DNA from: Malacoraja senta
Lineage: Eukaryota
NCBI GenBank assembly: GCA_038087875.1
Contig: CM075988.1
Coordinates: forward strand, 8,558,001-8,622,000
DNA length: 64,000 bases
Direction: 5' to 3'
The notes below the pieces were generated by a model that was not told the origin of the DNA, did no database searches, and saw only the letters and a program-made list of their open reading frames with translations. The stretch's first letter is position 1. Every line of letters begins with the position of its first letter. The translations under genes were made by a program, and so were the position numbers. Below are positions 24,981 to 56,574 of the stretch, one piece after another.

Positions 24981-26175
24981 GGGTATTTTCACACAGAGAG
25001 TTGTGAGTCTGTGGAATTCTCTGCCTCAGAGGGCGGTGGAGGCCGGTTCTCTGGATACTTTCAAGAGAGAGCTAGATAGGGCTCTTAAAGATAGCGACGT
25101 CAGGGGATATGGGGAGAAGGCAGGAACAGGGTACTGATTGGGGATGATCAGCCATGATCACGTTGAATGGCGGTGCTGGCTCGAAGGGCCGAATGGCCTA
25201 CTCCTGCACCTATTGTCTATTGTATACTAACACTATCCTAAACACTAGGGATAATTTTACAACTTGCCAAAGGCAATTAACCTACAAATATGTACGTCTT
25301 TGGAATGTGGAAGGAAACCTGAGCACCCAGAGAAAGCCCACGTGGTTACGGGACGAATGTATAAACTCCATACAGGCAGCACCCATTGTCAGGATTGAAC
25401 CCGGGTCTCTGGCAGCAACATTACCGTTGCGCCACTGTCATACAGCACAGAAACAGGTCCTTTGGCCCAACTCCCTCATGCCATCCCATCCAAGCTATTT
25501 CCATGTGCCTGCGTTTGGCTGATAACTCTGTAAACGTTTCCACATATCTAAAACTGATTGGGGATGATCAGCCATGATCACATTGAATGGTGGTGCTGGC
25601 TCGAAGGGACGATTGGCCTACTGCACCTATTGTCTATAGTCTATTGAAACTATTCCGCTCAGAAACATCACATTCATCATAAAGCCCAAGACAGTCAACA
25701 ATCATTGAAGAAAGATTTGTGGGTGAATTTTACATACATTTCAGGAGAGAAGTAAATAGAAATAAAGGAGAATTAATTGAGATCAATATATATTTCCAAC
25801 TAATTACTGAGTCACAGAATATTACGGAGGTAAATAATAGGGCACCAGGCATTAGTGTAGTTATAATTTCACTATTATTCATCCTGAGTTTAATAATTTT
25901 TCCCATGATGCAGAGTATGGCTATGCTGGAGGTCACTTACCTGTCAGTAAAATGTAATTATGTTTACTTGCACCATTTGCATGAAGATTGCAAGCTTGGG
26001 CATTTACTGTCCTGCAACTGTCCTGTTCTGTTTTTTTAAATTTAATGCTAGCAATGGCCAGCATTGTACAAGATCACGAGAGGAATAGATCGGGTAGACG
26101 CACAGAATCTCTTGCCCATATATTGGTATACGTCATGACATAATACATTTATCATAGTCAATTAGTCATAGAGTC

Positions 26176-26758
26176 TGTTAGGCGCTTCCCCCCCTGGTGA
26201 ATGCTATGTACTTACCTTTCTCTGTTTCTCGCCCGAGTGCAGGCCTTGTGGCTGTGAGTCTGGAATCAAGGGGTTAAAAGGCTCCTGTACCTGATTGGCC
26301 AAGCTGCATCAGGTGACGGGTGACTCATCTGAAGCTTAAATACCAGAGTCTCCCAGGATTCTCTCTCTTCTTCGTCGACCCTGACTTGTGAGCTGACTGC
26401 TGGAGTGAGCTGCGGAAGGCCTGGCCACCTGGCATAGAACTTTGTGTACTTTCACCATTACTTATTAACAAATATTGAATTGGGACGGATAAGGGCTGAC
26501 CTTAGTGTTTTCGTGTATTTTGTTTCAGGGTTATATCTCTTTAGGCAGGTTTTAGAGTCTCCGGTTCGACGGTCCATCACGTGGCTGGCTGGAGCACTGT
26601 TAAAGTGTTTGTTAGTCCATCCATATCCCTGACTGGGTTGTTTGAATCAGGTTTGGGTTTTGTGTTCCATTGAATAATTAAAACTACTTTTGAACTTGAA
26701 CCTGTTTTTTGAATTATGTTACGCGGCTCTGAAGTACCTGCATTCGGGAGTCATAACA
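26176..26758 (+). repeat. 5' LTR (LTR1, 583 bp)
   Basis: TGTTAGGCGC...TCATAACA, followed by the PBS. Confidence 0.95.
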
Positions 26759-26761
26759 AAA

Positions 26762-26779
26762 TGGGGACTCGTCCGGGAT
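26762..26779 (+). promoter_or_regulatory. Primer-binding site, tRNA-Pro
   Basis: TGGGGACTCGTCCGGGAT matches the canonical tRNA-Pro PBS TGGGGGCTCGTCCGGGAT at 17/18 positions, 3 nt after the LTR. Confidence 0.9.
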
Positions 26780-27030
26780 TTTGAGGACCCTAGACATTTT
26801 GGTTTTTTTTTTTTGGTAGGCTTCTGGTGACTGAGGAAGTCTGTGTTGTGAGGGAAATTTTTCTTGCCTGTTTGTGGTAGCATTGGAGGACAGGCATATC
26901 CATGGCAAGGATAATGTCTTGGCTGATGCCTTGTCGCGCCAGTAGAGTTTTAGCTCCTGAATAGTTTCTGGGATTTGGTGGTGTTTTTTCTCTCTTCTTC
27001 CAAAACTTATTCAGTATCTTTGGGTGGGGG

Positions 27031-27480
27031 TGTTAGGCGCTTTCCCCCCTGGTGAATGCTATGTATTTACCTTTCTCTGTTTCTCTCCCGAGTGCAGGCC
27101 TTGTGGCTGTGAGTCTGGAATCAAGGGGTTAAAAGGCTCCTGTACCCGATTGGCCAAGCTGCATCAGGTGACGGGTGACTCATCTGAAGCTTAAATACCA
27201 GAGTCTCCCAGGATTATCGCTTTTCTTCGTCGACCCTGACTTGTGAGCTGACTGCTGGAGTGAGCTGCGGAAGGCCTGGCCACATGGCATAGAACTTTGT
27301 GTACTTTCACCATTACTTATTAACAAATATTGAATTGAGACGGATAAGGGCTGACCTTAGTGTTTTCGTGTATTTTGTTTCAGGGTTATATCTCTTTAGG
27401 CAGGTTTTAGAGTCTCCGGTTCGACGGTCCATCACGTGGCTGGCTGGAGCACTGTTAAATTGTTTGTTAGTCCATCCATA
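27031..27480 (+). repeat. Internal 3'-truncated LTR (LTR2)
   Basis: Preceded by polypurine tract GGGTGGGGG. Matches LTR1 up to TCCATCCATA, then switches abruptly to gag-region sequence. Confidence 0.93.
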
Positions 27481-27526
27481 ACCGAATGGGAACTGTCCCA
27501 CACCTTCTGTTCAGCCTGGTCAGGAC

Positions 27527-30500
27527 ATGGAGGCAGTCATTAGGTTGAAGGATTTAGAGCTGGCAATGAAAGAGGAGGAGACCAAAAGAGCAGAGGAGGA
27601 GACCAAAAGAGTCTCCCAAGAGGAGGAGACCAAAAGAGCAGAGATTCAGCTGCGTGGGGCTGAGGAGGAAACCAAGAGGGCAGAGATTAGGCTGCGGGAG
27701 AAGGAATTGGATGCCTCCCGGGTTTCTTCTAGGGAACGGGAGTTTGATATGAGCAAGAACATCCGCCTGGTTCCCCCCTTTAGTGAGAAGGATGTAGACA
27801 AGTTTTTCACAGTGTTTGAACGGGTGGCTTTGTCCTTGAAGTGGCCTAGGGACGTGTGGACCTTGCTATTGCAGTGTGTCCTTGTGGGTAAAGCACGGGA
27901 GGTGTACTCGTCTTTGTCTGTAGAAAGCAGTCTGGACTATGAGTGTGTGAAGTCTACAGTATTAAGGGCTTATGAATTAGTTCCAGAGGCGTACCGGCAG
28001 AAATTCCGGCGCTTTAGGAAGTTTGATAGTCAGACTTATGTGGAGTTTGTTAGGGAGAAGGAGGCACATTTTGACAGGTGGTGCGCTTCTCAAGGAGTGA
28101 AGGATATTGGGCAACTGCGGGCCTTGATGATTATGGAAGACTTTAAGAACTGTCTCCCTGAGAGGGTTACTACTTACCTTAATGAGCAGAAGGTGAATGA
28201 GGTGTCTAAAGCTGCGGTGTTGGCAGATGAGTATGTATTGACTCATAAAACAGATTTTGTTGGGCGCTCCTATAGTTTTGGTGGACGGCCGGTTGATCGT
28301 GGTGGTGTCGCCGGTGGCAGTGTCAAAGGTGTTTCTGTGCCTGCAAGTGGCAGCACGTTGATACATGAGGAGGTCCGAGCTGATAAGGTTGACGGAAATT
28401 TGAGGACTAACGAAGGTCCTATGTGCTACTATTGTAGAGGGAGAGGGCACATGTTAAACGCGTGTCCCGTTCTGAAGCAGAAAAATGCAAAGCCTGTGGC
28501 TTTGGTGGGTACACAGAAGGCACCTGTGGTACCTGAGGTGCCTGAGTCTGATGAGTGTAGGAATTATTCTGCGTTCATCATGAATGGTTTTGTTTCTCTG
28601 GAGGATGGGGGTGATAGAGTTCCAGTATCCATCTTGCGTGATACTGGTGCTACTCAGTCCTTTATATTGGAGAGTGTACTGATGTTTTCTGGGGAATCAT
28701 CCGTTGGGTCAAGTGTCCCCGTGGTAGGATTCGGGATGGATGGCATGGTAGTGCCTTTGCATACCATAAGTCTCGAGTCTGAGTTGGTTTCAGGCCGGGT
28801 AACTGTTGGGTTACGGCCGTGTTTTCCCGTTGAGGGAGTTTCAGTAATTTTGGGGAATGACTTGGCAGGAGGTAGAGTTTTAGTTACTCCTGAGGTGACG
28901 GCTGTTCCGATGGTGCAGAGTCCTGATAGATTGGCTATGCAGCATCCGAGGGTTTTCGCAGCTTGTGCTGTCACGAGGGCTATGGCTAAGAGCCAGGCGA
29001 AGTTTGGGGATGTAGTGGACCTGAGTGAGAGCATTTTTGGGGATCAGGATGATGGATCCTGTGTTGTGAAGGGTGTTTCTACATCTCAAGATGGGATAAT
29101 GTCTGGAAATGGGCCGGTGTCGCTGTCACGTGACCGGCTGGTTGAGGAGCAAAAGAGTGATCCAGGTTTATCTGATCTGTTCGACTGCGCGGTGCCTGAG
29201 GGGGATATGGAGTCCACAGCAAAGGGGTATTTTCTAAGGGAGGGCTTACTGATGCGATAGTGGTCTCCCTTGGATATATCTGGGCATGATGATTGGAGCG
29301 TGGTTGATCAGATTGTGATACCTCGTCGGTATAGGGACGAGATACTCTGTTTGGCTCATGATGGTCCTCTGGGTGGACATTTGGGGGTCAATAAGACGTA
29401 TGACCGGATCTAACGGAATTTTTTTTGGCCAGGGTTGAAAAAGGACGTGAAACAGCAGTGCAGGTGTTGTCACATTTGCCAGGTGGCAGGAAAGCCGAAC
29501 CAATCGATTGTTCCTGCACCTTTATATCCAATCCCTGTGGTCGGTGAGCCGTTTGAGCGGATTTTAGTTGATTGTGTGGGTCCTCTACCTCGGACAAGGG
29601 TGGGTAACAAGTTTTTATTGACAATTATGTGTGCGTCTACCCGCTTTCCGGAGGTGGTCCCTTTGCGTAGAATTACTGCCCCTACCATTGTGAAGTCTCT
29701 CACTAAGTTTTTTTTGTTGTTCGGTTTGACCAAGGTTGTGCAGAGTGACCAAGGTTCCAACTTCATGTCGAAGGTTTTTGGTCAGGTAATGAAGTTGTTA
29801 GATATTAAGCATTGTTACTCCAGTGCGTATCACCCTGAGAGCCATGGAGCTCTCGAGAGGTTTCACCAGACTTTGAAATCTATGTTGAGGACTTACTGCC
29901 TGGAGTTTGAAAAAGACTGGGATGAAGGGGTTCATCTAGTTATGTTTGCGGTGCGTGAGGTCGTGCAGGAGTCTTTAGGGTTCAGTCCTGCTGACCTGGT
30001 GTTCGCGCATACTGTACGTGGTCCGTTGAGGGTCCTAAAGGAGAAATGGTTGCAGGAGGATACAAAACGTAGTATTTTAGACCACGTCTGTACCTTTCGG
30101 TCTAGACTAAAGAGGGCATGCGAACTGGCAATGGGTAATCTTGCTTCTGCTCAGTCTAGGATGAAGGGGTGGTTCGACAGGAAGGCTTCTAGTAGGAATT
30201 TTTCTCCAGGTGACAAGGTCCTGGTGTTGTTGCCTATTCCTGGTTCCAGTCTGCAGGCTCGGTATAGCGGTCTCTATCAGGTGGTTAAGAAGGTTGGTGA
30301 AAGGGATTATGTTATTGGTACCCCTGATCGAAGGCGTAAGACTCAGCTCTGTCATGTCAACATGATGAAGCAGTACCATGAGCAGGAGCCTGTGGAGGTT
30401 GATGGGGAGGTGCTGTGTCCTTTGGTTTTGTCTAAGCCTGTTTTGGCTGCAGTGGTGCTGCCCCCTGACACGGGTGGTGATGTGGGTGAGGCACGGTTGT

Positions 30501-31920
30501 CTGTGGCAGTGACGCAGGGAAGGCTGTGTAACTCTGAGGCTTTGGAGTCGCTTCCCTTGTGGTTGTCTCATTTGACTGAAAGTCAGCGGGGTGATCTGCT
30601 TGATTTGGTGGAGTCAAATGGGTCACTGTTCTCGGATGTGCCTTCTCAGACGTCTGTGCTGCAGCATGACATTGACGTGGCCGGTGCTGCGCCAATTAAA
30701 CAGCATCCGTATCGGGTCAACCCTGACTGGCGTCTTCGTCTAGGGAGTCAGGTTGACTATATGCTGCGGCATGGCATTGCTGAACCTAGTTGTAGTCCGT
30801 GGAGTTCTCCGTGTCTACTGGCTACGAAGGCTAATGGGGAGGACAGGTTTTGCATGGACTTTCGGAAAGTGAATGGTTTAACTAAGCCGGATTGCTATCC
30901 TCTCCCACGAATGGATTGCGTGGATCGTGTGGGAAGTGCACCTTTTGTGTCCAAATTGGACTTGTTAAAAGGGTATTGGCAAGTTCCTTTGACTAGGCGG
31001 GTGAGGGAGATCTCTGCGTTCGTTACGCCTGATAACTTTCTTCAGTACACAGTAATGGCATTTGGGATGCGCAATGCGCCGGCAACCTTCCAACGGTTGG
31101 TGAACATTGTATTGTCTGGTTTGTCCTTCTGTGAGGCAAACCTTGATGATTTGGTTGTGTGCTCCAGGTCGTGGATCGAACACATCTGAAGGAGGTATTT
31201 CATCGTCTAGTGGAGGCAAAACTAACGATCAATCTGGAGAAGTGTGAGTTTGGCCAGGCCACGGTAACGTATCTGGGTAAGGTGGTGGGCCGGGGTCAGG
31301 TTCGCACTCTCAAGGAAAAGGTGGGGCATATTGTCGCATTTCCTGCTCCAACCTCGAGGACTGAACTCTGTAGGTATCTGGCTATGGTTGGGTACTATAG
31401 AGGATTCTGTCCAAACTTCTCTGCGACGAATTTGCTGAGTCCGAAGGTAGCTTTTGTGTGGTCCGCAGAGTGTCAACAAGCCTTTGATCATGCTAAAAGT
31501 CTTCTGGTGCGCGCACCTGTGCTTGCGGCACCTGATTTTGAGCGTCCATTTAAGCTGGCAGTGGATGCTAGTGATCGTGGGGTTGGGGGAGTTCTTCTAC
31601 AGGATGATTCAGATGGGGTGGAGCATCCAGTTTCGTACTTCTCTAAGAAGTTTAATCGTCATCAGAAGTGGTACTCCACCATTGAGAAAGAAGCCCTTGC
31701 TATTTTAATGTCTCTGAATCATTTCGAGGTTTATGTTGGCTCCTCGAATGTCCCTGTCATCGTACTCACGGATCATAATCCGTTGGTATTTTTGAAAAGT
31801 ATGAAGAATAAGAGCCGGAGGTTAATGAGCTGGAGTTTGCAGCTGCAAGACTACAATCTGGAGGTCAGGCATATCCGTGGCAAGGATAATGTCTTGGCTG
31901 ACGCTTTGTCGAGCCAGTAG
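27527..31920 (+). pseudogene. Disrupted gag-pol polyprotein (SCAN-like capsid, CCHC, protease, integrase, RT, RNase H)
   Basis: Motifs in order: CYYCRGRGHMLNAC; LRDTGATQS; AHDGPLGGH...CHIC; VDCVGP / SDQGSNF / ALERFHQ; SKLDLLKGYWQ / FGMRNAPATFQ / NLDD; VDASD / EKEAL / TDHNPL / LADALS. In-frame stops at 29258 and 29411 and a frameshift near 31180. Confidence 0.93.
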
Positions 31921-31997
31921 AGTATTAGCTCCTGAATAGTTTCTGGGATTTGGTGGTGTTTTTTTCTCTCTTCTTCCGAAACTTATTCAGTATCTTT

Positions 31998-32006
31998 GGG
32001 TGGGGG
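31998..32006 (+). promoter_or_regulatory. Polypurine tract
   Basis: GGGTGGGGG immediately before LTR3. An identical copy lies at 27022-27030. Confidence 0.8.
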
Positions 32007-32575
32007 TGTTAGGCGCTTCCCCCCCTGGTGAATGCTATGTACTTACCTTTCTCTGTTTCTCTCCTTGTGGCTGTGTCTGGAATCAAGGGGTTAAAAGGCT
32101 CCTGTACCCGATTGGCCAAGCTGCGTCAGGTGACGGGTGACTCATCTGAAGCTTAAATACCAGAGTCTCCCAGGATTCTCTCTCTTCTTCATCGACCCTG
32201 ACTTGTGAGCTGACTGCTGGAGTGAGCTGCGGAAGGCATGGCCACCTGGCATAGAACTTTGTGTACTTTCACCATTACTTATTAACAAATATTGAATTGG
32301 GACGGATAAGGGCTGACCTTAGTGTTTTTGTGTATTTTGTTTCAGGGTTATATCTCTTTAGGCAGGTTTTAGAGTCTCTGGTTCGACGGTCCATCACGTG
32401 GCTGGCTGAAGCACTGTTAAATTGTTTGTTAGTCCATCCATATCCCTGACTGGGTTGTTTGAATCAGGTTTGGGTTTTGTGTTCCATTGAATGATTAAAA
32501 CTACTTTTGAACTTGAACCTGGTTTTTGAATAATGTTACGCGGCTCTGAAGTACCTGCATTCGGGAGTCGTAACA
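32007..32575 (+). repeat. 3' LTR (LTR3, 569 bp)
   Basis: Copy of LTR1 with small deletions near its 5' end. Ends TAACA before the TSD. Confidence 0.95.
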
Positions 32576-33099
32576 GAGTCTTACAACGTAGAAACAGGCC
32601 CAAATTGGAATCGAAAACCAGAGGACACAGGTTTGAGGTGAGGAGGAGAAAGTATTAATAGGGGTAACTTTTTCATGCAAAGGGTGGTAAGTGTATGGAA
32701 GTAGTTGGAAGTAGTTAAGGCAGGTACTATGAGAACGGTTATGAAACATTTAGAGAGGTACATGGATAGGACAGGTTTAGACGGAAATGGGCCAAATGCA
32801 GGCAAGGTGGGTCTAGTGTAAATGGGACATGTTGCCCGATGTGGGCAAGCTGGGCCAAAGGCTTGTTTCCACACTGTAAGACTCTATGACTAATTGTCTA
32901 TGATAAATTTATTATTTCGTGACGTATACCAATATATGTGCAACTTACACGTAAATACTCTACCTTGATCTTCTTTTTGCCTTATCAATTCCGCACTAAA
33001 CCAATCTTATGACAAGAGAGATCCCTGGCCCAATCTCCCACCCTGAATCCATCTCCAATCTGATCGGTGAGATTCCTGAGTAGTGGAGGGACTTTCAAA

Positions 33100-33506
33100 G
33101 TGTCGGGTACTTTTCGACGCTGCCGTTCCGGCGCCGCCGATTCGGCGCTGCCGTTTTGGCGCCGCTGTTTCGTCGCCTCCGTTTATAATATCTGTACTCA
33201 TCAGAACCCTAACCCTAACCTCTGTAAATACCTCCAGATAAATAAAAGTGTTCCATGCGTCACAATACTCCGGGATAGTGAATTCCAGAGATTCATCACC
33301 CTCTGCAAGAAGTTCCTATGCCAAGGATATTGCAAGTGAGATCAGCTTTATGTTAACAAGTTTGGAAATCATTTTCCACTGGCCCACCGCTGTGGCACCC
33401 TAACCCTAACCCATACCCTAACCCATACCCTAACCCTAACTCTAACACAAAACAGCGGTGCCCAAACGGCAGCGCCGAAATGGCGGCGCCGAATGGTACC
33501 ATTCTG
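33100..33506. mobile_element. Non-autonomous DNA transposon with 8-bp TSD and internal (CCCTAA)n tracts
   Basis: CTTTCAAA at 33092-33099 and 33507-33514. GC-rich subterminal inverted repeats. Telomere-like tracts at 33205-33220 and 33397-33446. Confidence 0.7.
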
Positions 33507-51904: not shown

Positions 51905-52114
51905 GACGCCATCTTGTCCACGGGGAGCGACTCCAGTACTCACCAGGACGCCATCTTGTCCACGGGGAGCGCCTCCAGTACTCACCAGGACGCCATCTTG
52001 TCCACGGGGAGCGCCTCCAGTACTCACCAGGACGCCATCTTGTCCACGGGGAGCGCCTCCAGTACTCACCAGGACGCCATCTTGTCCACGGGGAGCGCCT
52101 CCAGTACTCACCAG
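51905..52114 (+). repeat. Five tandem 42-bp units in the PLE N-terminal linker
   Basis: GACGCCATCTTGTCCACGGGGAGCGCCTCCAGTACTCACCAG x5; one substitution in unit 1. In frame (DAILSTGSASSTHQ). Confidence 0.97.
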
Positions 52115-52736
52115 GAAGTCGCCTTCACCGACCTCCACGTCAATGCTGCCGCCGACCTTCACCTGCCTACCGATGACGCCCAGGCTCGCCGCTTCTACGG
52201 TAACTCGGACTTCCTTCCCCTCGCCGATTCCTCCGAACCTCGCCGCCCCCCGGGACCTCCCAGCATCGCCGCCGGACCGGGCCCATCCAGCATCGCCGCC
52301 GGACCGGGCCCACTCTACACGGCCGCCGGACCGGGGATCCACGAACTTGGCCGCCGCACCGCACCCTATTCACCCCGTCGCCTCACCGGACTGGTCGAAC
52401 CGCGCCGCCCCACCGACCATCCGCCTACCGGGACCTCCCACGCATCGCCCGTGGACCCCGACTCTACTGCCCACCTACCCCGACCATCGGGTGCGCCGAC
52501 CCTCGCCACTGCAACGCCCTCCAGCCCCACCGACCCCGACTACACTGCCCACGGACCCCGACCGTCGGGTCCGCTGACCCTCGCCACTGCACCTCCCTCC
52601 AGCAGCCCGCAGCCGTCGCCTTACCTGCAAACTGGACTCTGTACTGGGCCTGAAGCCTCCACGCTGTTCACTCCCACTCTCCTGGGTTTGACTCCACTGG
52701 GTCCTAGCGCTAGTCTGCCTAGCCCTGGTTATCTCA

Positions 52737-55090
52737 GTGGCAGTTCCACTGATTCTTCCCCATCCCTCTCCAACTATGGGACCACTTCTCTTCCACACCC
52801 ACACCACTGCCCTCTCACCCCCCCACCCCCTGACCACCCACCACACATCGCCTCGTCCCCATTACACCCACCTGCCTTCCTCCGGCCCCAACCCCCATCC
52901 CTGCCGGGTGTTCACCATCCCCCCCGACCTCCCCCTCTCCGACATCGAACGGTCTGTCCTCAGCAGAGATCTTACCTTTGTCCCCCTCCGTCCCCATCTC
53001 AATGAGTTCCGTGCCCTCCATGACTTGGAACGCTTCTACCGTCGCCTCCGCCTCACAGCTCACTTCCATGGGAAGCAGTCCTCGCTCCCCACTGATGACC
53101 CCTTTTCCCGTCTCCAACGCACCCCATCCTCATGGAACCCCCCTCGCAGCCTTCCGGCTTTAGAACTCTTTATTAAAAACTGCCGCCGTGACATCAACCG
53201 CCTCAACTTCTCCACTCCCCTGTCTCACTCCAATCTCTCCCCCCTTGAACGCACTGCCATCGACTCACTCCGCAACAACCTAGATTGGGTTATCAAACCC
53301 GCCGACAAGGGAGGTGCCGTGGTAGTCTGGCGCGTCGACCTCTACAAAGCTGAGGCCACGCGCCAACTCTCGGACACCTCTTCCTACTTACCCCTGGACC
53401 ATGACCCCACTGACGAGCACCAGGCCACCATCTCCAGCACCATCACCAACTTCATCCACTCCCACGCCCTGCCCGAACGAGCCTCCAACCTCATCGTTCC
53501 CCAGCCCCGCACAGCCCGCTTTTACCTTCTCCCCAAAATCCACAAACCTGACTGTCCCGGTAGACCCATTGTCTCTGCCTGTTCTTGCCCCACCGAACTC
53601 ATCTCCACCTACCTCGAATCCATACTATCCCCCTTGGTTAAATCCCTCCCCACCTATGTTCAAGACACCTCAGACACTCTCCGTCATCTCCGCGCATTCC
53701 ACTCTCTAGGCCCTCACCCCCTCATCTTCACCATGGACGTCCAGTCACTGTACACCTCCATCCCCCACCAGGATGGTCTCAAAGCCCTCCGTTTTTTCCT
53801 CGACCGTAGAAGCAATCTATACCCGGCCACTGACACCCTCCTCCGCCTAGCGGAGCTGGTACTTACACTTAATAACTTTTCATTTGACTCCTCCCATTTC
53901 CTCCAAATACAAGGCGTAGCTATGGGCACACGCATGGGCCCCAGCTACGCCTGCCTCTTTGTCGGGTACGTAGAACAATCCCTGTTCAATGCGTACCAGG
54001 GCCCCATCCCCGACCTCTACCTCCGCTACATCGATGATTGTTTTGGTGCCACATCCTGCACCCACACACAACTGACTGACTTCATCCGCTTCACCACCAA
54101 CTTCCATCCGGCACTCAAATACACCTGGACCATTTCCGACACTTCCCTACCATTCCTTGACCTCACTATCTCCATCGCAGGTGATAGACTCCTTACCGAC
54201 ATCCACTACAAACCTACCGACTCCCATGGCTATCTGGACTACACTTCTTCCCACCCTGCTTCCTGTAAGGACTCCATCCCCCACTCCCAATTCCTCCGTC
54301 TACGCCGCATCTGCTCCCAGGATGAGGCGTTCCACACCAGGGCATCTGAAATGTCCTCATTCTTCAGGGAACGGGGGTTCCCCTCCTCCACCATAGATGA
54401 GGCTCGCACCAGGGTCTCTGCCATACCCCGCAACACTGCTCTCTCTCCCCATCCCCCCACTCACAACAAAGGCAGAGTCCCCCTAGTCCTCACCTTTCAC
54501 CCCACCAGCCGTCACATACAACAAGTGATCCTCCGTCAGTTTCGCCACCTCCAACGTGACCCCACCACTCGCCACATCTTCCCATCTCCCCCTATGTCTG
54601 CCTTCCGCAAAGACCGCTCCCTCCGTAACTCCCTTGTCAATTCTTCCCTTCCCTCCCATACCACCCCCTCCCCTGGTACTTTCCCTTGCAACCGCAAGAG
54701 ATGCAACACTTGTCCCTTCACTTCCCCCTCCACTCCATTCCAGGACCCAAGCAGTCGTTCCAGGTGCGACAGAGGTTCACCTGCATCTCCTCCAACCTCA
54801 TCTATTGCATTCGCTGCTCTAGATGCCAGCTGATCTACATCGGTGAGACCAAGCGGAGGCTTGGCGATCGTTTCGCCGAACACCTCCGGTCGGTCCGCAA
54901 TAACCAACCTGAACTCCCGGTGGCTCAGCACTTCAACTCCCCCTCCCATTCCGTATCTGACCTCTCTGTCCTGGGTCTCCTCCATGGCCACAGCGAGCAA
55001 CACCGTAAATTGGAGGAAATGCACCTCATATTCCGCTTGGGCAGTCTACATCCTGGTGGCCTGAACGTTGAATTCTCCCAATTCTGCTAG
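52737..55090 (+). pseudogene. PLE reverse transcriptase plus GIY-YIG endonuclease, frameshifted near 54725
   Basis: IKPADKGG, YLLPKIHK, GRPIVS, MDVQSLYTSIP, GVAMG and YLRYIDD in ORF 52737..54833. LIYCIRC-x-YIGET-RF.EH-HF-E in ORF 54686..55090. Confidence 0.92.
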
Positions 55091-55206
55091 CCCTGGCTGT
55101 CCCCTCCCCTTCATCAGCCATCTGGTTGTCTCCTCCCCTCCCCCAGCCCTCGGGCTCCTCCTCCGCCTTTTCCTTTTTTCCTTTCTTCTCCCCACCCCCT
55201 ATCAGT

Positions 55207-55235
55207 CTGAAGAAGGGTTTCGGCCCGAAACGTTA
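55207..55235 (+). ncRNA. Minimal hammerhead core in the pLTR of the long PLE
   Basis: CTGAAGA-A-GGGTTTCGGCCC-GAAAC-GTTA, about 115 nt downstream of the ORF stop on the sense strand. Confidence 0.65.
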
Positions 55236-56574
55236 CCTATTTCCTTCGCTCCATAGATGCTGCTGCACCCGCTGAGTTTCTCCAGCATTTTTGTGTACCT
55301 TCGATTTTCCAGCATCTGCAGTTCCTTCTTTAACAACCGACATCTTTGGAGTGTGTGAGGAAACCGGAACACCCGGAGAAAACCCACGCAGTCACATGGA
55401 GAACGTACAAACTCCGTACAGACAGCACCTGTGGTCAGGATAAAACCCGGGTCTCTGGTGCAGTAAGACAGCGATTCTACTGCTGCGTCACTGTGCCGAC
55501 CCACATCTCTTTTGAAAACATAGAACATACAACAGTACAGCACAGGAACAGGCCCTTCGGACAACAATGATCGTGCCGAACATGATGTCTGAAGAAGGGT
55601 CTCGACCCAAAACGTCACCCATTTCTTCTCTCCAGAGATGCTGCCTGTCCTGCTGAGTTACTCCAGCATTTTGTGGCTATGCAAACATAAACTAATCTCC
55701 TCTGCCTGCACATGATCCATATGCCTCAATTCCTTGCATATCCATGTACCCATCCAAAAGGCACTTAAATGCCACTATCACATCTACCTCACCATTGGTG
55801 GAAAACCCGGGGGGGAGGGGGGCAGGGGGGACGTGTCCCCTCCATGTTTTCAGAGGTGGGGAACGGTCCCCCTCACGTTACAAGCTTTAAATCTGTGGTA
55901 CAGATCTGCAGTAATTGACTCATTCTAACGGTAACGGCCCCGTAGTAAAAGCATCCACGTCGCGGGGCTGGAAACTGGAAGAATCCCGAGCTAATTACCG
56001 TTCACAGGGCGCACGGCTGAAGCTTCCGATGCCTCGCATGTGTGTGTGAGTGTGCGCACGGAGGGGACCGGGGGACAGAGTGTCCCCCCTGTCCCCCGGT
56101 CCCCTCCATGTTTTGAAAGCAGTTTCCTCACCACCACCCTTGACACTCTTGGCCGCTGTAAGCATCAGTAGTACCAGGGCTGGAGCTGATGGCAATGTGA
56201 GGAGAATAGAGATTAGTGTAGATTTAGTGTAATCAAGTGCTTGATGGTCGGTGTGGACTCAGCGCACCAAAAGGCCATCTGATTCTTGACCTGTGACCTA
56301 TGCACTCTATCGCTTCTTCAATAGCCATCATGAGGTCAGGAAAGGTGTTAAACAAGTGCAACCCTTTTTAATTACATCTTGAAAAGAGGCAACAAAAAAA
56401 TCCAATGCATGTGATCAGAAAGATGCAGCTGGAAATGTTCTAATGACTGGTGATGTCACTACAATTGGTCCCAGTGCCTTGGGCAAGGAAGGGGCAAGAA
56501 ATCACACAGTCACGTTCCCTGGTCTTTATTGCAGACATGAAGAAAAGTGTATTCTGACTTAGATCTGAAGAAGG

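What the first reader, a model, noticed from the sequence alone, without database searches (positions are those of the whole stretch)
26176..32575. Three-LTR chimera: a mini deleted element fused to a second element within one TSD
Seen: the order is LTR1, PBS, ~100 bp leader, last 147 bp of the internal region (26884-27030, a copy of 31859-32006), PPT, LTR2 truncated at 27480, gag (start apparently lost), pol, PPT, LTR3. One GAGTC duplication surrounds everything. The two pol-end copies differ at about eight positions, including synonymous GAT/GAC and GCC/GCT. Inference: the left part is a TRIM-like non-autonomous unit with all cis signals (only ~270 bp between LTRs). It was joined to a related but distinct template, probably by template switching during reverse transcription, and then integrated once.
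Basis: partly seen in the sequence, partly recalled or inferred. Interest (0 to 1): 0.7.

Follow-up and report, generated by a model that had tools for sequence, protein, structure and literature searches.

The report
One-off three-LTR retrotransposon copying slip
This is a single dead copy of a common jumping gene in which about 230 bases near its start are replaced by a 600-base copy of the family's tail end, likely through a slip during reverse transcription; neither new joint occurs anywhere else in the assembly, so it is not a mobile mini-element family.

Summary
The structure is real as described: three LTRs of a Gmr1-like Gypsy element inside one GAGTC target duplication. A mirror repeat in the flank confirms the duplication. 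The simplest reading is one replacement, not two fused elements. About 232 nt of leader and gag start are missing. In their place sit 594 nt copied from a 3' end (pol end, PPT, LTR bases 1-450) and a 14-nt filler. Both junctions occur once in the 1.94-Gb assembly, so no TRIM-like subfamily is seen. All three LTRs share a rare marker pair, so the donor was very close kin. LTR2 still differs at three template-type sites, weakly favouring a sibling template. The insert shares none of 11 changes private to the copy's own 3' end, so it is about as old as the insertion. Non-homologous template switching during reverse transcription is most likely (about 55%). Three-LTR, single-TSD elements are published, and 2 of 58 other mapped copies of this family have the form. 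Read support was inconclusive. No earlier scan note held all my search words. Ordinary; low interest.

The parts
26171..26175 (+). left target-site duplication GAGTC
   Evidence: mirror arm carries it once
26176..26758 (+). LTR1, complete, 583 nt, TG...CA; TATA-like box near 26336, conserved ATTAAA near 26678
   Evidence: ATTAAA about 80 nt from the LTR end in 98 of 101 sequences
26762..26779 (+). primer-binding site, 18-nt complement of the tRNA-Pro 3' end with one mismatch
   Evidence: ARAGORN tRNA-Pro genes end in the matching motif
26759..26886 (+). leader, cut about 40 nt before the gag ATG of normal copies
26887..27030 (+). inserted copy of the last 144 nt of the internal region, PPT at 27021-27030; 3-nt microhomology at 26884-26886
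27031..27480 (+). LTR2, bases 1-450 only (predicted U3 plus part of R); lacks ATTAAA and the U5 end
27481..27494 (+). 14-nt filler of undetermined origin
   Evidence: only chance-level 7-8 nt matches in the element
27495..31920 (+). gag (SCAN domain, start missing), protease region, integrase, RT, RNase H; broken by stops at 29258 and 29411 and a frameshift near 31150-31190
   Evidence: the protease label is from a motif seen by eye, with no Pfam hit
31997..32006 (+). 3' polypurine tract
32007..32575 (+). LTR3, 569 nt, with private 12-nt and 2-nt deletions
32576..32580 (+). right target-site duplication GAGTC
32880..32943 (-). intact mirror arm of the host inverted repeat into which the element inserted (92% to 26112-26175)

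Best explanation
This is a single, dead Gmr1-like Gypsy copy whose leader end and gag start (about 232 nt) are replaced by a 594-nt copy of the family's 3' end, likely through two non-homologous template switches during one round of reverse transcription. Inferred path: minus-strand synthesis ran normally down to gag, added or scrambled 14 nt, and jumped into R at the 3' end of a co-packaged, closely related RNA. It then copied R, U3, the PPT and 144 nt of pol, and jumped back to the leader at a 3-nt microhomology. The product had normal outer LTRs and integrated once. Shown: the anatomy, single TSD, unique junctions, shared markers and matching ages. Inferred: the RNA stage, the U3/R/U5 limits and the second template.
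For: One TSD, checked against the mirror arm. LTR1-LTR3 differ at 13/569, LTR1-LTR2 at 10/450 and LTR2-LTR3 at 13/436, all within the range of 32 LTR pairs of single elements (mean 2.4%, 0.7-4.7%). The insert carries none of 11 changes private to the copy's own 3' end (8 substitutions, 3 indels), so it did not arise late from LTR3. All three LTRs share a marker seen in 34 exact matches against 335 for the common state. Only 1 of 29 other marker-bearing loci examined also has their state at LTR1 position 26349, so a random genomic donor is unlikely. LTR2 differs from LTR1=LTR3 at 3 sites where both states are inherited variants. Only 1 of 32 within-element pairs reaches 3, against 77 of 90 between-element comparisons. 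The insert stops before the conserved ATTAAA and holds no U5, so it would fit inside an RNA 3' end. Template switches giving deletions with insertions are known for retroviruses (PMC3187697, passages).
Against: No test here separates an RNA template from a DNA one. Family copies are star-like: the insert is 20/580 from its own 3' end, and 10 of 67 other 3' ends are closer (best 17/593). The three template-type sites include two beside alignment gaps, in a 7-nt cluster found nowhere else in the genome, so no donor was found. LTR1 and LTR2 share one derived CpG change that LTR3 lacks, which the model does not predict. Non-homologous switches are at least 1000-fold rarer than homologous ones in retroviruses (PMC3187697), and two are needed. 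Filler plus microhomology also fits DNA break repair (own knowledge).
Confidence: 0.55

Rival explanations
1. After integration, a break in the leader/gag region was repaired by copying 594 nt from the element's own 3' end (sister chromatid) or from a close relative, with filler and microhomology at the joints.
For: Filler and 3-nt microhomology are typical of templated end-joining (own knowledge). Post-insertion rearrangements are common in this family: deletions, inserts, and a local duplication that copied flank DNA in L109/L182.
Against: A self-copy must predate all 11 private changes of the 3' end and must also gain three template-type changes (1 of 32 pairs). A random donor would rarely carry the shared marker pair.
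Confidence: 0.2
2. One reading: a pre-existing mini-element (LTR, PBS, leader, pol end, PPT, LTR) was transcribed and co-packaged, and one switch from gag into its R region fused the two before integration.
For: It needs only one aberrant switch in this cycle. LTR2 looks slightly different at template-type sites. The family does amplify deletion derivatives: shared internal deletions recur in L066, L079 and L098, and in L078, L116, L137, L141 and L142.
Against: Junction 1 occurs once (pattern with 1 mismatch; only the self hit spans it among 40 scored of 612 candidates). None of the 50 of 100 sampled copies with a detectable PPT-LTR has an internal region under 1313 nt.
Confidence: 0.12
3. A head-to-tail dimer (LTR-internal-LTR-internal-LTR) integrated or formed by recombination, then suffered two independent deletions.
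For: Dimers with one TSD are published (PMC1950507, whole text; 10.1101/452573, first half). The C4 copy L180/L128 has three LTRs in one TSD with one deletion-like joint.
Against: It needs a 4.6-kb and a 0.5-kb deletion whose breakpoints happen to lie 232 nt apart on the normal map and leave almost no duplicated internal sequence.
Confidence: 0.1
4. Assembly artefact joining reads from different copies.
For: No listed contig piece from six public runs bridged either junction, but only the longest pieces are shown and contigs drop rare variants.
Against: The TSD matches on both sides, each LTR has its own private changes, and the joints lie at non-homologous places with a filler.
Confidence: 0.03

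Closest known systems
Template-switching complexes: three-LTR retrotransposons within one TSD (Sabot and Schulman 2007, PMC1950507, whole text read; rice complexes, 10.1101/452573, first of two parts read)
   Same: Three LTRs, one TSD, similar outer LTRs, proposed origin before integration.
   Different: Those have a whole middle LTR and two complete internal regions joined through R homology. Here the middle LTR is cut, there is no second PBS, and both joints are non-homologous.
Retroviral deletion-with-insertion products of RT template switching (reviewed in PMC3187697, passages; Pathak and Temin 1990 seen only as a reference entry)
   Same: A stretch is lost and replaced by sequence from elsewhere in the genome, at joints with little homology.
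   Different: Seen here as a genomic fossil of a Gypsy element; the inserted piece happens to carry a PPT and most of an LTR.
TRIMs and multi-LTR Cassandra elements (PMC4079214 and PMC7215508, passages)
   Same: Short non-coding stretch (272 nt) between LTRs, with PBS and PPT.
   Different: TRIMs are multi-copy with complete short LTRs, and each internal Cassandra LTR is flanked by PBS and PPT. Here there is one copy, the LTRs are 583 nt and the second is incomplete.
Gmr1 clade of Gypsy elements (PMC8220671, PMC4131045, PMC11117352, passages)
   Same: Integrase upstream of RT, SCAN domain in gag, about 6 kb, gag and pol in one frame.
   Different: Nothing at family level; this copy is rearranged and dead.

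Membership tests
Gmr1-like Gypsy | integrase upstream of RT and RNase H | tested here: met
   Pfam order rve, RVT_1, RT_RNaseH; feature as stated in PMC8220671
Gmr1-like Gypsy | SCAN domain in gag | tested here: met
   PF02023, E 1.3e-14; found in over half of Gmr elements and only in them, per PMC4131045
Gmr1-like Gypsy | RT tree placement within the Gmr1 clade | not tested
   no tree with reference elements was built
TRIM | short non-coding internal region with PBS and PPT | tested here: met
   272 nt between LTR1 and LTR2
TRIM | two complete terminal repeats | tested here: not met
   LTR2 ends at base 450 of 583 and lacks ATTAAA and the terminal CA end
TRIM | independent copies with their own TSDs | tested here: not met
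   junction 1 found once; the left unit has no TSD of its own
Template-switching complex (Sabot and Schulman) | flanking TSD and similar outer LTRs | tested here: met
   GAGTC; 13/569 differences
Template-switching complex (Sabot and Schulman) | complete internal LTR and two complete core regions | tested here: not met
   cut LTR2, no second PBS, 272-nt first core
RT deletion-with-insertion product | formed during reverse transcription from an RNA template | tested here: inconclusive
   age and marker tests are compatible but do not exclude early DNA repair

The most novel reading that the evidence does not exclude
The copy is a frozen step in the birth of a TRIM. One replacement put a PPT, U3 and part of R just behind the PBS. 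A first strand transfer onto that inner R would yield a complete mini-element with a 272-nt core. Alternatively, the left part is the only fossil of such a vertebrate Gmr1-derived mini-element that was once co-packaged.
Probability: 0.12. Interest if true: 0.45.

Novelty: new member of a known kind. Interest (0 to 1): 0.2.

Why it matters
As it stands it matters little: one dead, rearranged copy in a family with at least 222 exact LTR-PBS junctions. Three-LTR, single-TSD elements are described in plants and recur in this family. It is a tidy example of how a likely reverse-transcription slip can mimic a mini-element fused to a full element. It would matter more if junction 1 turned up as independent insertions, since that would show a one-step route from an autonomous Gypsy element to a TRIM.

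Tried and rejected
Read support: no RNA holder was listed and only Logan contigs were offered. Six runs were laid. No listed piece or joint bridged either junction or the empty site, but most pieces were not shown and contigs drop rare variants, so this is no evidence either way. Donor search: the best other 3' end is 97% identical (40 scored of 962 candidates), and the LTR2-specific cluster occurs only here. Filler origin: only 7-8 nt matches, chance level. The idea that LTR2 ends at the poly(A) site was rejected, because the conserved ATTAAA lies about 50 nt further on. LTR trees were unresolved; LTR1+LTR2 grouped at 89/72 in one tree and not in the other. Excess divergence of the pol-end copies is marginal (binomial p 0.048, Fisher p 0.15). 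One search used a faulty internal ruler and a wrong column limit; they were redone. ARAGORN did not call tRNA-Pro at the first three motif loci but did at two others. Rows dropped: L063 (duplicate of the L062 insertion) from pair counts; 42 of the 100 fetched copies whose 5' LTR was under 88% identical or not mapped to the expected end, from the structure survey; L112 from LTR pairs. Paper searches listed no report of this exact form in a Gmr1 element, but none was aimed at that, so I make no claim of absence. Two look-ups in earlier scan notes returned notes on other reverse-transcription slips; none changed my reading.

Full report
What is there. The window holds one LTR element at 26176-32575 between two GAGTC 5-mers. 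Pfam finds SCAN in gag, then integrase ahead of RT and RNase H. That order marks the Gmr1 clade of Gypsy elements (PMC8220671 and PMC4131045, passages); I built no reference tree. The PBS matches the 3' end of tRNA-Pro genes of this genome. The reading frame is broken by two stops and a frameshift. The family is large: 222 exact LTR-PBS junctions. The element inserted into one arm of an inverted repeat, and the mirror arm shows the 5-mer once, which confirms the TSD.

Observation. The pol-end copies differ at 7 substitutions and one indel.

One replacement, not two elements. Normal copies run on from the leader for about 232 nt (230-232 in 38 of 53 copies with both anchors), through the gag ATG, to the place where the window's gag resumes at 27495. 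In the window that stretch is replaced by 594 contiguous nt of 3'-end sequence and a 14-nt filler. The first joint has 3 nt of microhomology; the second has none. The two breakpoints are neighbours on the normal map, as expected of a single deletion with insertion.

No mobile mini-element. Junction 1 has one match in the assembly at up to 1 mismatch and junction 2 one match at up to 2. DNA searches gave only the self hit across each junction among 40 scored candidates of 612 and 734. I fetched 100 of the 222 PBS-anchored copies. In 50 a PPT-LTR lay within 6.8 kb, and the shortest internal region was 1313 nt. The family does show amplified deletion derivatives, with recurring shared deletions, so a mobile form could have been visible. 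LTR2 lacks the ATTAAA conserved in 98 of 101 LTRs and the terminal end, so the left part does not have all cis signals.

Age. LTR1-LTR3 differ at 13/569; over the shared part the three pairs differ at 9/436, 10/450 and 13/436. Thirty-two LTR pairs of single elements average 2.4% (0.7-4.7%), while the median distance to 84 other LTRs is about 5%. The copy's own 3' end has 11 private changes in the duplicated interval, and the insert has none of them. A late local duplication is therefore excluded; the event falls at or soon after insertion.

Donor. The LTRs say more, in both directions. All three share a state found in 34 exact matches against 335 for the common one, and only 1 of 29 other carriers examined also has their state at 26349. 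The donor was thus the same lineage. Yet LTR2 differs from LTR1=LTR3 at three sites where both states are inherited variants; 1 of 32 true pairs reaches three, against 77 of 90 comparisons between the ten closest elements. Two of these sites lie by alignment gaps in a hypervariable patch after the TATA-like box, and the LTR2 form of the patch is unique in the genome. This is weak support for a sibling template. By distance alone the source cannot be told: 10 of 67 other 3' ends are closer to the insert than the copy's own. One CpG change shared by LTR1 and LTR2 but not LTR3 is unexplained.

Mechanism. The most likely path (inferred, 0.55) is two non-homologous switches during minus-strand synthesis: from gag into R of a second RNA, then from the pol end back to the leader. 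Normal outer LTRs then allowed one integration. Such events are known for retroviruses, though rare (PMC3187697, passages). Early templated DNA repair (0.2), a lost mini-element template (0.12), a dimer with two deletions (0.1) and an artefact (0.03) remain. Public contigs could not test the structure.

How unusual. Among 58 other copies mapped, two more have three LTRs in one TSD. The C4 copy (L180/L128, TSD CCAAT) has an extra piece 10/1057 from its own 3' end and at least 2.3% from 36 others. L112 (TSD CTGTA) has an inner LTR of another subfamily, best read as nesting plus recombination. Three-LTR single-TSD complexes are described in Triticeae, rice and maize (PMC1950507, whole text; 10.1101/452573, first half) and in Cassandra TRIMs (PMC4079214, passages). 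I read no supplements. The window copy differs from these in its cut middle LTR and non-homologous joints, but it is one dead copy.

Verdict. Observation confirmed; interpretation partly supported. A new member of a known kind, interest 0.2.

Noticed in passing
window 26762-26779: The PBS here matches tRNA-Pro over 18 nt, while most copies match only about 13 (1 of 100 sampled has the long form). Only 2 places in the genome fit the long pattern, and the other copy is not close kin. It is likely a fixed copy of the tRNA primer.
   Followed up: partly
L180:7774-9801 with L128 (G000:C4:53810274-53817944): Second three-LTR copy in one TSD (CCAAT): LTR bases 1-167 joined to the last 1.06 kb of pol, then a whole element. 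The extra piece is self-derived and as old as the insertion.
   Followed up: yes
L112 and L181 (G000:C2, about 156.726-156.739 Mb): Three LTRs in one TSD (CTGTA) with an inner LTR of a 10% diverged subfamily; likely nesting followed by recombination.
   Followed up: partly
L109 and L182 (G000:C2, about 140.88 Mb): 323 nt of the 5' flank plus a whole LTR are duplicated inside the 3' LTR, a post-insertion local duplication.
   Followed up: partly
L066, L079, L098; L078, L116, L137, L141, L142: Shared internal deletions across dispersed copies suggest non-autonomous lineages amplified in trans.
   Followed up: no
LTR1 about 26337-26370: Variants shared by both LTRs of an element peak just after the TATA-like box (76 paired against 14 discordant changes), as expected of errors made at reverse transcription near the U3/R border.
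   Followed up: partly
window 33112-33494: GC-rich inverted repeat arms about 270-300 nt apart, MITE-like.
   Followed up: no
window 52001-56000: GC-rich (0.54-0.62) stretch with strong C skew.
   Followed up: no
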